Translations under genes and position numbers: made by a program | In this document: piece by piece, positions 4,213 through 7,564 of the stretch | How positions within the stretch are numbered: the stretch's first letter is position 1 | How the letters are laid out: the number at the start of each line of letters is the position of its first letter | Assembly: GCA_018667355.1 (NCBI GenBank) | Contig: JABIVC010000009.1 | Location: 18,665-82,664, forward strand | Length of the DNA: 64,000 nt | From: Gammaproteobacteria bacterium | GTDB taxonomy: Bacteria; Pseudomonadota; Gammaproteobacteria; GCA-002705445; GCA-002716945 | Direction of reading: 5' to 3' | Notes under the pieces: generated by a model | Database searches by the model: none | Told to the model about the DNA's origin: nothing | What the model saw: only the letters and a program-made list of their open reading frames with translations

Positions 4213-5496
4213 ATGAATAAACTTAGATCTGCAAATGAAATCCAAAAAGACTGGGATACTAATCCTAGATGGAAAAATGTAAAACGAGACTATACAGCTG
4301 AAGAAGTCGTAAGATGTAGTGGTAGTGTGAGAATAGAGCATACTTTAGCTAAAAATGGCGCTGAAAAACTATGGAATCTGATTAATACTGAAGATTTTGT
4401 GAATGCTTTAGGAGCTTTAACCGGTAATCAAGCAATGCAACAAGCAAAAGCAGGTTTAAAAGCAGTTTATTTATCAGGTTGGCAAGTTGCTGGTGATGCT
4501 AATACTGGAATGCAGATGTATCCAGATCAATCACTATATCCAGTAGATAGTGTACCAAGTGTTGTTAAAAGAATTAATAACTCTCTAAGAAGAGCGGATC
4601 AATTAAATATTGCTGAAGGTAATGAGATAATTGACTATATGTTGCCTATAGTTGCTGACGCAGAAGCTGGCTTTGGTGGCGTTCTAAATGCTTTCGAGCT
4701 TATGAAGGCGATGATCGAAGCAGGTGCAGCAGGTGTTCATTTTGAAGACCAACTTGCATCAGCTAAAAAATGTGGTCATATGGGTGGAAAAGTTCTTGTT
4801 CCAACTCAAGAAGCAGTTCAAAAACTTGCTGCTGCAAGATTAGCAGCAGATGTTTCTGATGTCCCAACTGTTCTTCTAGCAAGAACCGATGCTGAAGCTG
4901 CAAACCTAATTACTAGTGACATTGACCCAAGAGACAAAGAGTTTTGTACGGGTGATAGGACTGCAGAAGGTTTTTATAGAGTTAATAATGGAATAGAGCA
5001 AGCTATATCCCGTGGGTTAGCGTATGCTCCATATGCTGATTTAGTTTGGTGTGAAACTGGAGTTCCAGATCTAGCATTTGCTAAACAATTTGCTGAAGCT
5101 TTGAAAAAAGAACATCCAGAGCAATTGTTAGCTTATAATTGTTCTCCTTCGTTTAATTGGAAGAAAAAACTTGATGACTCTCAAATAGCTAAATTCCAAA
5201 AAGAATTAGGCGCTATGGGATATAAATTCCAGTTTATTACTTTGGCTGGTTTTCATGCTTTGAATCATAGCATGTTTGAATTAGCAAAAGGTTATAATGA
5301 AAGTCAAATGACAGCTTATGTTAAATTACAAGAAGCAGAATTTGCATCAGAAAAAGATGGATATACTGCTACTAAACATCAAAGAGAAGTAGGAACTGGT
5401 TATTTCGACACAGTAACACAAGTTATTCAAGGCGGAACTTCTTCAACTACAGCTCTTACAGGTTCTACAGAAGAAGAGCAGTTTGACGAAAAATAA
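4213..5496 (+). CDS. aceA: Isocitrate lyase
   Basis: Catalytic signature KKCGHMGGK, plus [16 protein letters not shown] and [12 protein letters not shown]; GAGG SD upstream. Confidence 0.98.
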
Positions 5497-5529: not shown

Positions 5530-6849
5530 ATGATTAAATATAATATACCGAATGGTGGAGAGGTAATATCGTTTCAGGGTGGAGCGATAAACACCCCTGA
5601 CAAACCCATCATACCTTATATAATTGGTGATGGCATTGGAATGGATGTCACGCCAGTTATGAAGAGGGTTCTTAATTATGCAATTGGAAAAGCATACGGT
5701 GTCTCCAGAGAAATTAAATGGATGGAGATATATGCTGGTCAGCAAGCAAAAGAAAGTAGTAACGAATTACTCCCTCAAGAAACAATTGATGCAATGAAGA
5801 AATATAGAGTTTCAATTAAAGGGCCGTTAACTACACCTGTAGGGAATGGATTTAAATCTCTAAATGTGACTATAAGACAAAAACTTGATTTGTATGCATG
5901 CGTTAGACCGATTAGATATTTTCCGGGCACAAGCAGCCCTATGGTTGAGTCAAATTTAACTGATATGACGGTTTTTAGGGAAAATACCGAAGATCTTTAT
6001 ACTGGAATTGAATGGAAGGCTAACTCAGAGGGAGCAAAAAAAATAATTAATTTTATTAAAGAAGAGTTAGGTGAATCCCCGTTTCGTTTTGAGAATAATT
6101 GTGGAATCGGAATTAAACCCGTGTCTCGAGAAGGGTCAGAAAGGCTTATTAACATGGCTATTGAATATGCATTAAATGAAAAAAAGGATTTTTTAACCAT
6201 TGTTCATAAGGGCAACATAATGAAATATACAGAAGGTGCATTTAGGGATTGGGCGTATGGTTTAGTGAAAGACAAATATAATGGAACCATGAACGATGAT
6301 GGGACATTTTCAATATCAAATATTGGAGCAAAACATATTTTAACAGTCAAAGATTGTATAGCTGATAATTTTTTACAACAAATAATTTTAGTACCTGAGC
6401 AACATGAGGTTATCGCTACTCTTAATTTGAATGGTGACTATATATCAGATGCTTTGGCTGCACAGGTAGGAGGAATAGGAATAGCTCCTGGTGCTAATAT
6501 TGGTGAAGGTGTAGCTGTTTTTGAAGCGACACATGGTTCGGCAGAATCATTTGCTGGTAAAAATAGAGTTAATCCGAGTTCAATTATATTATCTGGTGAA
6601 ATGATGCTTAGATATATGGGGTGGGATGAGGCAGCAGATTTTGTACTCAAAGGTGTCAAGGGAGCAATACAGAAAAAACAACTTACTTTTGATTTAGCTC
6701 GGGCAAGAGCTGGTAGAAAATTTATTAGACCAAAATCTAAAGAAAAACATACTGCTGAAGAAATTCAAAAAGAGTTGATTACATTAGTTCCAGGAGCAAC
6801 TTTAGTTAGCACAGAAGGATTTGGTGATGCAGTTATAGATAATATGTAA
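5530..6849 (+). CDS. icd: Dimeric isocitrate dehydrogenase with an atypical cofactor pocket and a C-terminal insertion
   Basis: Motifs GDGIG, KGPLTTPVG, FRENTEDLY, VHKGNIMK, NLNGDYISD and FEATHG, collinear with E. coli Icd. Confidence 0.95.
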   Translation: MIKYNIPNGGEVISFQGGAINTPDKPIIPYIIGDGIGMDVTPVMKRVLNYAIGKAYGVSREIKWMEIYAGQQAKESSNELLPQETIDAMKKYRVSIKGPLTTPVGNGFKSLNVTIRQKLDLYACVRPIRYFPGTSSPMVESNLTDMTVFRENTEDLYTGIEWKANSEGAKKIINFIKEELGESPFRFENNCGIGIKPVSREGSERLINMAIEYALNEKKDFLTIVHKGNIMKYTEGAFRDWAYGLVKDKYNGTMNDDGTFSISNIGAKHILTVKDCIADNFLQQIILVPEQHEVIATLNLNGDYISDALAAQVGGIGIAPGANIGEGVAVFEATHGSAESFAGKNRVNPSSIILSGEMMLRYMGWDEAADFVLKGVKGAIQKKQLTFDLARARAGRKFIRPKSKEKHTAEEIQKELITLVPGATLVSTEGFGDAVIDNM

Positions 6850-7135: not shown

Positions 7136-7564
7136 ATGAATATAAATATTGGTTCTAGGCAGACAGATGATTTTAAAATTATGAATTTTGATCATCTTAT
7201 GAAGATCTATGAAAATAATTATTATCTTTTTAAAAAGGTAATTACTTCACTTAGGGATAATAGTTCGATGTCAACAATCGTGTTTAATAATAATGTCATG
7301 CAATATGAGCCTATTACGATTACCAAATATACAGATATATTTAAATTTTATTATAAATATAAGTCTCCCTTTTATCCTGGAAATAGTTACTCAATTAAAC
7401 CTCACCTATTATTCACGCTCTATAAAGACGCAAGGTTGCTTGAAGTTAAGTCATTAGGTCAAAACAAGGATTTTGACGAAAATATCAGAAACAAAATAAA
7501 AGTTAATTTAAATATTTATTTCTGGTTAAAGAGTATTTTGAAAAATAATCATACATATCAATAA
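7136..7564 (+). CDS. DUF1249 (YqiB-like) protein
   Basis: YENNY, TKYT, LYKDARLLEV and a terminal N-x-x-x-x-x-WL pattern resemble DUF1249; recognised by eye. Confidence 0.6.
   Translation: MNINIGSRQTDDFKIMNFDHLMKIYENNYYLFKKVITSLRDNSSMSTIVFNNNVMQYEPITITKYTDIFKFYYKYKSPFYPGNSYSIKPHLLFTLYKDARLLEVKSLGQNKDFDENIRNKIKVNLNIYFWLKSILKNNHTYQ

What the first reader, a model, noticed from the sequence alone, without database searches (positions are those of the whole stretch)
6532..6702. IDH cofactor pocket is neither NADP-type nor NAD-type
Seen: catalytic residues are intact, but E. coli H339-GTAPKY-AG reads HGSAESFAG (P343E, K344S, Y345F), and Y391 is F while R395 is kept. Known: K344, Y345 and Y391 bind the 2'-phosphate of NADP, while NAD-specific homologues typically have D-I at 344-345. 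Inference: this is an unusual specificity solution, possibly NAD-preferring or dual, with Glu343 in the Asp role.
Basis: partly seen in the sequence, partly recalled or inferred. Interest (0 to 1): 0.55.

Follow-up and report, generated by a model that had tools for sequence, protein, structure and literature searches.

The report
Isocitrate dehydrogenase with rebuilt cofactor pocket
The only isocitrate dehydrogenase of a family of tiny-genome marine bacteria has lost four of the five residues that normally grip the extra phosphate of NADP and has gained a conserved glutamate there, so it probably prefers NAD although databases label it NADP-dependent; no enzyme assay exists yet.

Summary
ORF 5530-6849 is a genuine E. 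coli-type (type I) isocitrate dehydrogenase with all substrate and catalytic residues. A gapless alignment gives P343E, K344S and Y345F, with V351, N352 and R395 kept and Y391F. R292' is also replaced (by V), and the 258-263' loop is remodelled.

This state is shared by all 30 full-length IDHs recovered from the 37 species genomes of the window's family. These genomes are 0.6-1.2 Mb and span 6 genera. Glu343 is invariant (GAA and GAG codons), while 344 and 292 drift among small residues.

The enzyme belongs to a paralogous subfamily linked to aceA that carries a 27-residue basic insertion after R395. Its ancestors were NADP-type. In larger genomes, members with degenerate pockets nearly always sit beside a canonical NADP-IDH. 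This family keeps only the odd copy. It has PntB and no 2-oxoglutarate dehydrogenase, malate synthase or AceK.

Best reading: NAD-preferring (about 0.5). Rivals are dual or low specificity, or NADP retained through R395, R397 and the basic insertion. Geometry could not be checked and nothing was assayed. It is a new variant of a known kind.

The scan had already noted a Gly-Phe sister form in another genome.

The parts
5530..6849 (+). icd: type I (E. coli-like) homodimer-type isocitrate dehydrogenase, 439 aa. It is the only IDH found in the genome.
   Evidence: NCBIfam PRK07006 scores 578.7 bits (cut-off 490). TIGR00183 scores 567.5 against a cut-off of 567.3. The only other Iso_dh family member in the genome is LeuB. 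No monomeric IDH was found.
6532..6576 (+). Cofactor-binding loop HGSAESFAGKNRVNP, equivalent to E. coli H339-P353. It carries T341S, P343E, K344S and Y345F; V351 and N352 are kept.
   Evidence: Gapless alignment. Family-wide pattern GSAE[S/P/T/N/A/V][F/Y]AG.
6544..6546 (+). Glu339 of the protein, equivalent to E. coli P343. It is invariant in the family and Pro in all 28 outgroup sequences.
   Evidence: The codon is GAA in 20 species genomes and GAG in 10.
6391..6393 (+). Val288, equivalent to E. coli R292', the 2'-phosphate ligand donated by the other subunit.
   Evidence: The family shows V, A or S at this position.
6295..6309 (+). Remodelled loop DDGTF, equivalent to E. coli 259-263 (DGGPW) of the second subunit, with a one-residue deletion after it.
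   Evidence: GPW is conserved in all outgroups. W263 is listed as an NADP contact in PMC8623467.
6688..6708 (+). Start of helix alpha12, FDLARAR. It carries Y391F, keeps R395 and has the subfamily-specific R397.
   Evidence: R395 and R397 are invariant in 116 family sequences; position 391 is F or Y.
6703..6783 (+). 27-residue basic insertion, protein residues 392-418 (ARAGRKFIRPKSKEKH...). Its Arg/Lys positions are conserved and no solved IDH structure covers it.
   Evidence: PDB alignments of the E. coli-type dimeric IDHs, the top 20 rows, stop by residue 401; loop pLDDT about 60, then a helix at 409-419.
4213..5496 (+). aceA (isocitrate lyase), 33 nt upstream on the same strand with no terminator-like site between. 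It is probably co-transcribed with icd.
   Evidence: The adjacency is conserved in 28 of 30 family loci and in several outgroups.

Best explanation
This is a functional isocitrate dehydrogenase that descends from NADP-type ancestors and has secondarily given up classical recognition of the NADP 2'-phosphate. It most likely now prefers NAD+.

Shown:
- Four of the five 2'-phosphate ligands are replaced by residues that cannot bind phosphate: R292' to V, K344 to S, Y345 to F and Y391 to F.
- The otherwise universal Pro343 is an invariant Glu.
- The rest of the nicotinamide, pyrophosphate and adenine contacts are kept.

Inferred:
- The Glu carboxylate repels the 2'-phosphate and/or hydrogen-bonds the ribose 2',3'-diol. 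This is the role Asp344 plays in NAD-specific relatives, here one position earlier in the loop.
- Phe345 keeps the packing against adenine without the phosphate hydrogen bond.
- Physiologically the enzyme only has to supply 2-oxoglutarate for biosynthesis, because no 2-oxoglutarate dehydrogenase is found.
- NADPH would come from the proton-driven transhydrogenase PntAB.
- An NAD-linked IDH would stay active even when the NADP pool is kept highly reduced.
For: 1. The pocket alignment is gapless.
2. The published NADP contacts K100, L103, T105, N232', Q287', Q288', E336, H339, G340, A342 and N352 (PMC8623467) are all kept, while R292', K344, Y345 and Y391 are changed.
3. Glu343 is invariant in 116 metagenome proteins and 30 species genomes, with both synonymous codons. 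Positions 344 (S/P/T/N/V/A) and 292 (V/A/S) drift, which is what positions that no longer touch a ligand would do.
4. P343E is one of only 13 of 412 columns that are fixed differently in the family and in the outgroups.
5. In the tree the family sits inside a clade of PKY/R292 NADP-type enzymes, on a long stem of 0.89 substitutions per site.
6. Against outgroups, IDH identity is 54-64% while its operon partner ICL stays at 69-75%. Among outgroups the two proteins diverge about equally, so the acceleration is specific to IDH.
7. In larger genomes, 11 of 12 subfamily members with a non-KY pocket coexist with a canonical PKY/R292 dimeric IDH or a monomeric IDH. This suggests a division of labour.
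8. The family has PntB in 16 of 17 high-quality genomes and lacks sucA in 37 of 37. The window's own genome lacks G6PDH and malic enzyme.
9. Natural type I IDHs with non-canonical residues at 344/345 are experimentally dual: UmIDH with R/L/V and MfIDH with K/I/A (PMC10380307, PMC5397045). This pocket is further from the NADP type than either.
Against: - There is no assay.
- No coordinates of the AlphaFold model could be read, so the direction of the Glu343 side chain is unknown.
- Position 343 is not the canonical acidic position, and adjacent loop side chains often point in different directions.
- V351, the NADP-type residue, is kept rather than Ala.
- R395 and R397 are invariant.
- The insertion directly after them carries conserved Arg/Lys at 400, 401, 404, 406 and 410 (E. 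coli-style numbering) that could bind a phosphate.
- In the wider insertion subfamily R292 is already variable even where PKY is kept. This hints that the insertion may have taken over part of phosphate binding.
- Glu (GAA) is favoured by the AT-rich composition of this genome.
- The genome has no other obvious soluble NADPH source. That could equally argue for keeping an NADP-linked IDH.
Confidence: 0.5

Rival explanations
1. Dual or low-specificity enzyme. Flux through IDH is small because there is no 2-oxoglutarate dehydrogenase, and PntAB balances the pools. Selection on cofactor choice therefore relaxed and the pocket decayed to a form that uses NAD+ and NADP+ with similar, probably modest, efficiency.
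For: - Positions 344, 292 and 391 are variable within the family.
- The subfamily as a whole shows many states at 344/345: KY, KH, GF, GL, QH and SF.
- UmIDH (R/L/V) is dual with millimolar Km values.
- The pocket is a hybrid: V351 and R395 are NADP-like, while the missing K/Y and an acidic residue are NAD-like.
Against: Glu343, Phe345, R395 and R397 are under clear purifying selection across 6 genera, which is not simple decay. This is the sole IDH of a streamlined genome, so a poor enzyme would be costly.
Confidence: 0.27
2. Still NADP-preferring with a relocated phosphate site. The 2'-phosphate would be held by R395, the subfamily-specific R397 and Arg/Lys of the 27-residue insertion. Glu343 would form a salt bridge to the insertion, acting as a lid latch, rather than touching the cofactor.
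For: - The insertion starts right after the helix that carries Y391 and R395, and its basic residues are conserved.
- R397 is nearly invariant in the subfamily, while R292' is already variable in members that keep PKY.
- The genome lacks G6PDH and malic enzyme, so NADPH from IDH would be useful.
- NCBIfam NADP-IDH models score above their cut-offs.
Against: - A conserved acidic residue is gained in the phosphate-facing loop.
- K344, Y345-OH, Y391-OH and R292' are lost together.
- On an ideal helix, residue 397 lies about 200 degrees around from 395 (inference only).
- Subfamily members that keep PKY also have the insertion, so the insertion did not arise as a replacement.
- Members with degenerate pockets in larger genomes almost always keep a separate canonical NADP-IDH.
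Confidence: 0.2

Closest known systems
E. coli NADP-isocitrate dehydrogenase (Icd; PDB 1AI2, 9ICD; EC 1.1.1.42)
   Same: It is the best PDB sequence match (E = 3.5e-155) and is colinear over residues 5-400. It has the same substrate and catalytic residues and the same adenine, pyrophosphate and nicotinamide contacts.
   Different: - R292', K344, Y345 and Y391 are replaced and P343 is Glu.
- The 258-263' loop is remodelled.
- A 27-residue insertion follows R395.
- No AceK is present in the genome.
- The gene is fused into an aceA-icd unit.
Acidithiobacillus thiooxidans NAD-IDH (PDB 2D4V) and other type I homodimeric NAD-IDHs (S. mutans, P. furiosus, Z. mobilis)
   Same: Same fold family (2D4V matches at E = 1.8e-133). 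They come from organisms in which IDH is mainly biosynthetic. The likely shared outcome is NAD+ use.
   Different: Those enzymes use Asp344/Ile345/Ala351 (PMC10380307). Here the residues are Ser/Phe/Val with the acid at 343. This enzyme is derived from NADP-type ancestors rather than from the old NAD branch.
Natural dual-specificity type I IDHs: Umbonibacter marinipuiceus UmIDH (Arg/Leu/Val) and Methylobacillus flagellatus MfIDH (Lys/Ile/Ala)
   Same: They are type I homodimeric enzymes whose 344/345/351 triad fits neither canonical set. UmIDH also comes from a marine gammaproteobacterium (PMC10380307, PMC5397045).
   Different: Both keep a basic residue at 344. This enzyme has none, adds an acidic residue at 343 and also loses R292' and Y391.
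Engineered NAD-specific E. coli IDH (PDB 1ISO)
   Same: It shows that replacing the same positions inverts specificity (1ISO is among the hits).
   Different: The natural solution here keeps V351 and R395 and uses Glu343 instead of Asp344.

Membership tests
Type I prokaryotic homodimeric isocitrate dehydrogenase (PF00180; NCBIfam PRK07006 / TIGR00183) | Sequence scores above the curated family cut-offs | tested here: met
   PF00180 scores 279 bits (cut-off 27). PRK07006 scores 578.7 (cut-off 490). TIGR00183 scores 567.5 (cut-off 567.3), so it only just passes.
Type I prokaryotic homodimeric isocitrate dehydrogenase | Isocitrate, metal and catalytic residues S113, N115, R119, R129, R153, Y160, K230', D283', D307 and D311 | tested here: met
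   All are present and are invariant columns in alignment A1.
Type I prokaryotic homodimeric isocitrate dehydrogenase | Homodimeric quaternary structure and isocitrate-dependent NAD(P)+ reduction | not testable with these tools
   This needs purified protein.
NADP-specific type I IDH (EC 1.1.1.42) | Lys344 / Tyr345 / Val351 specificity triad | tested here: not met
   The residues are Ser / Phe / Val. The family-wide pattern is [S/P/T/N/A/V] / F / V.
NADP-specific type I IDH (EC 1.1.1.42) | Further 2'-phosphate ligands R292', Y391 and R395 | tested here: not met
   R292 is V, Y391 is F and only R395 is kept.
NAD-specific type I IDH (EC 1.1.1.41) | Asp344 / Ile345 / Ala351 triad | tested here: not met
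   There is no acid at 344, Phe stands at 345 and Val at 351. The acidic residue is at 343 instead.
NAD-specific type I IDH (EC 1.1.1.41) | Kinetic preference for NAD+ | not testable with these tools
AceK-regulated IDH (E. coli-type branch-point control) | IDH kinase/phosphatase gene in the genome | tested here: not met
   PF06315 was not found in the window's genome, which is 94% complete. S113 itself is conserved.
aceA-linked, insertion-bearing IDH subfamily (defined here) | An insertion of about 25-30 residues after R395 beginning AR-x-R, with clade membership in the tree and aceA adjacency | tested here: met
   The clade has SH-aLRT support of 96. The insertion alignment is. aceA lies directly upstream.

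The most novel reading that the evidence does not exclude
A whole family of streamlined marine sulfur-oxidising gammaproteobacteria has naturally reverted an NADP-IDH to NAD+ use by a route not seen in characterised enzymes: Glu at the universally Pro position 343, with no acid at 344. This happened inside an aceA-icd operon. These would then be ICL-bearing organisms with no NADP-IDH at all, relying on PntAB for NADPH. That would be an exception to the reported rule that the glyoxylate branch is always accompanied by an NADP-IDH (PMC4360740, citing Zhu, Golding and Dean 2005).
Probability: 0.4. Interest if true: 0.6.

Novelty: new variant of a known kind. Interest (0 to 1): 0.5.

Why it matters
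IDH cofactor specificity is a textbook case of molecular adaptation: NADP use is read as an adaptation to growth on acetate through isocitrate lyase.

This enzyme descends from NADP-type ancestors, is co-transcribed with isocitrate lyase, and has dismantled the classical phosphate site in a way that none of the characterised NAD, NADP or dual enzymes shows.

If it is NAD-linked, three things follow:
- It gives a new natural solution for specificity reversal, which is useful for enzyme engineering.
- It shows that automatic 'NADP-dependent' labels are wrong for an abundant ocean lineage.
- It changes redox budgets in metabolic models of these bacteria, with NADPH coming from PntAB only.

The wider aceA-linked paralog, with its basic insertion and variable pocket, is itself unstudied.

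Tried and rejected
- **Register shift restoring K/Y:** rejected. The spacing H339...G347...V351-N352-P353 is identical to E. coli.
- **Sequencing error or pseudogene:** rejected. The ORF is intact and the state is shared by about 150 independent sequences.
- **Changed substrate (homoisocitrate or isopropylmalate):** rejected. All isocitrate-binding residues are kept, and IDH models far outscore LeuB and HICDH models.
- **A second, canonical IDH hidden in the genome:** not found. There is no other Iso_dh member except LeuB and no monomeric IDH.
- **Geometric test of Glu343 on the AlphaFold model:** not possible. Only pLDDT and secondary structure are returned and no coordinates appear in /data.
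- **The 50%-identity representative library:** it collapses the whole E. coli-type family into one representative, so it gave no fine-scale survey. It did show that Pro343 is the rule (48 of 56 motifs) and that rare Asp343 or Glu344-Phe345 variants exist elsewhere.
- **Enrichment of family-specific fixed changes in cofactor elements:** only suggestive. 4 of 13 sites fall in about 12% of the columns.
- **Identifying the family by name:** failed. Records are titled only 'Gammaproteobacteria bacterium'. UBA868 was excluded on genome size and absence of icd.

Full report
**What is there.** ORF 5530-6849 (+) encodes a 439-residue protein.
- It matches E. coli isocitrate dehydrogenase structures at E = 3.5e-155, colinear over residues 5-400.
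- It passes the NCBIfam models for prokaryotic NADP-IDH: PRK07006 scores 578.7 bits against a cut-off of 490, and TIGR00183 scores 567.5 against 567.3, only just above.
- It matches Pfam Iso_dh.
- All residues that bind isocitrate and metal or act in catalysis (E. coli S113, N115, R119, R129, R153, Y160, K230', D283', D307, D311) are present. They are invariant in a 35-sequence alignment of relatives.

It is an isocitrate dehydrogenase, not a LeuB or homoisocitrate enzyme.

**Check of the observation.**
- The codon at 6532-6534 is the His that aligns with E. coli H339. The codon at 6700-6702 is the Arg that aligns with R395.
- Between H339 and P353 the alignment has no gap: HGSAESFAGKNRVNP against HGTAPKYAGQDKVNP.
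- P343E, K344S and Y345F are therefore real, V351 and N352 are kept, and no register shift can restore Lys-Tyr.
- TFDLAR against TYDFER gives Y391F with R395 kept.

- R292, the ligand donated by the other subunit, is Val.
- The GGPW263 loop of the second subunit reads DGTF, with a one-residue deletion.
- 27 residues rich in Arg/Lys are inserted directly after R395.

A published list of NADP contacts in the E. coli enzyme (PMC8623467) allows a comparison. K100, L103, T105, N232', Q287', Q288', E336, H339, G340, A342 and N352 are all kept. The changes fall on R292', K344, Y345, Y391 and W263', which include four of the five 2'-phosphate ligands.

**Distribution.**
- Of the 120 closest proteins in the large metagenome collection (72-94% identity, many from ocean surveys), 119 read GSAE-x-[F/Y]-AG.
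- The window's genome is 1.03 Mb and 94% complete. Its GTDB family holds 37 species genomes of 0.6-1.2 Mb in six genera.
- All 30 full-length IDH genes recovered from that family have Glu343. They have S/T/N/P/A at 344, Phe at 345 (Tyr once), V/A/S at 292, F/Y at 391 and R395.
- Glu343 is encoded by GAA in 20 and by GAG in 10, so the residue is held by selection. Positions 344 and 292 are among the variable ones.
- P343E is one of only 13 of 412 alignment columns fixed differently in the family and in 28 outgroup sequences.

**Evolutionary origin.** A maximum-likelihood tree gives the following.
- All IDHs with the C-terminal insertion form one clade (SH-aLRT 96). It is nested among ordinary gamma- and betaproteobacterial PKY/R292/Y391/R395 enzymes.
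- The window's family forms a 100%-supported group on a very long stem of 0.89 substitutions per site.
- Its weakly supported sister still has Pro-Lys-Tyr.

The pocket is therefore a secondary loss from an NADP-type ancestor, not a survivor of the old NAD branch.

The acceleration is specific to IDH. Against outgroups IDH is 54-64% identical while the adjacent ICL is 69-75%. Among the outgroups themselves the two proteins diverge about equally.

**The subfamily.**
- The insertion-bearing IDHs are frequently encoded directly after isocitrate lyase. This holds in the window (33-nt gap, no terminator-like site), in 28 of 30 family loci and in several outgroups.
- Across the 120 nearest relatives of the sister sequence L005 (the widest sample of the subfamily taken), Pro343 is always kept. 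Position 344/345 is KY, KH, GF or GY, R292 is K/R/N/Q/S/H, and R395 and R397 are nearly invariant.
- Species representatives add SF, GL and QH at 344/345.
- In larger genomes, 11 of 12 members with a non-KY pocket coexist with a second IDH. Seven have a canonical dimeric PKY/R292 enzyme without the insertion, and four have a monomeric IDH. One of three PKY members has a second copy. These genomes are related to one another, so this counts as a few independent lineages, not twelve.

The pattern suggests that the aceA-linked paralog is freed from, or selected away from, the NADP role. The window's family keeps only this paralog.

**Metabolic setting.**
- The window's genome has no monomeric IDH, AceK, malate synthase, 2-oxoglutarate dehydrogenase E1, RuBisCO, G6PDH or malic enzyme. 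It does have PntB.
- Family-wide, PntB is in 30 of 37 genomes (16 of 17 high-quality ones). sucA is above cut-off in 0 of 37 and malate synthase in 0 of 37.
- IDH is therefore a biosynthetic outlet to 2-oxoglutarate rather than part of a full cycle. The transhydrogenase can supply NADPH.
- Earlier notes on this genome call it a dsrAB-bearing sulfur oxidiser. I did not re-test that.

**Mechanism.**
- *Shown:* loss of the positive charges and hydroxyls that hold the 2'-phosphate, and gain of a conserved carboxylate in the same loop.
- *Inferred:* Glu343 repels the phosphate and/or binds the ribose diol, as Asp344 does in NAD-specific relatives. Phe345 keeps the adenine packing.
- *Literature:* type I NAD-IDHs use Asp/Ile/Ala and NADP-IDHs use Lys/Tyr/Val. 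Two natural intermediates, Lys/Ile/Ala and Arg/Leu/Val, are dual (PMC10380307, PMC5397045). The present Ser/Phe/Val plus Glu343 is not among the described solutions and is further from the NADP type than either dual enzyme.

I rate NAD+ preference at about 0.5.

**Why not higher.**
- R395 and a subfamily-specific R397 are invariant. The insertion that follows carries conserved basic residues at five further positions.
- R292' is already relaxed in subfamily members that keep Lys-Tyr. The insertion may therefore have taken over part of phosphate binding, and Glu343 could be a latch for it.
- V351 is NADP-like.
- The AlphaFold model is good overall (pLDDT 84.7) but weak in the insertion loop (about 60). 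Its coordinates could not be read, so side-chain geometry is untested.
- The dual reading (0.27) and the retained-NADP reading (0.2) remain open.

**Novelty and verdict.** This is a new variant of a known enzyme kind: real, conserved, ecologically widespread, probably mis-annotated as to cofactor, and cheaply testable. It bears on the classic claim that a glyoxylate branch is always accompanied by an NADP-IDH (PMC4360740). The bypass here is incomplete, however, because malate synthase is missing. The scan had already flagged the Gly-Phe sister form with the same insertion in another genome, and the aceA-icd tandem in this and other genomes.

Noticed in passing
window 4213-5496 (aceA) and whole genome G000 / family f1: Isocitrate lyase is present and highly conserved, yet malate synthase (0 of 37 genomes) and 2-oxoglutarate dehydrogenase E1 (0 of 37 above cut-off) were not found anywhere in the family. 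ICL seems to serve as the route from isocitrate to succinate in a broken cycle. The fate of glyoxylate is unknown (glycine is one possibility).
   Followed up: partly
L004-L014, L035, L065, L117-L119 and P0271-P0390: A widespread, often aceA-linked IDH paralog occurs in Woeseiaceae, Steroidobacteraceae, Sulfurifustaceae, Acidiferrobacterales and others. It has a basic insertion of 25-30 residues after R395 and variable residues at 344/345 (KY, KH, GF, GL, QH, SF). Members with degenerate pockets nearly always sit beside a canonical NADP-IDH. All are annotated 'NADP-dependent'.
   Followed up: partly
G002:C3, G013:C8, G021:C4, G024:C4, G026:C8, G028:C19, G030:C4, G031:C1, G032:C10, G033:C2: In many family genomes pntB lies only 5-16 kb from icd on the same contig. 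This is a loose synteny of the two NAD(P) redox genes.
   Followed up: no
window 7136-7564 (+): A 142-residue ORF with no Pfam match lies between a small infA-like gene and the iscR-iscU genes. It is conserved in the same place on four independent metagenome contigs.
   Followed up: no
window 5530-6849: The protein clears the TIGR00183 'isocitrate dehydrogenase (NADP+)' equivalog cut-off by only 0.2 bits. Pipeline annotation will therefore assert NADP dependence on very thin grounds.
   Followed up: yes
P0213, P0267, P0219 (representatives): Other distant Iso_dh family clusters carry Asp at position 343 (GTADWIAG, GTADDIAG) or Glu344-Phe345 (GSAPEFAG). Acidic residues around 343/344 combined with Phe or Ile at 345 have therefore arisen more than once.
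   Followed up: no
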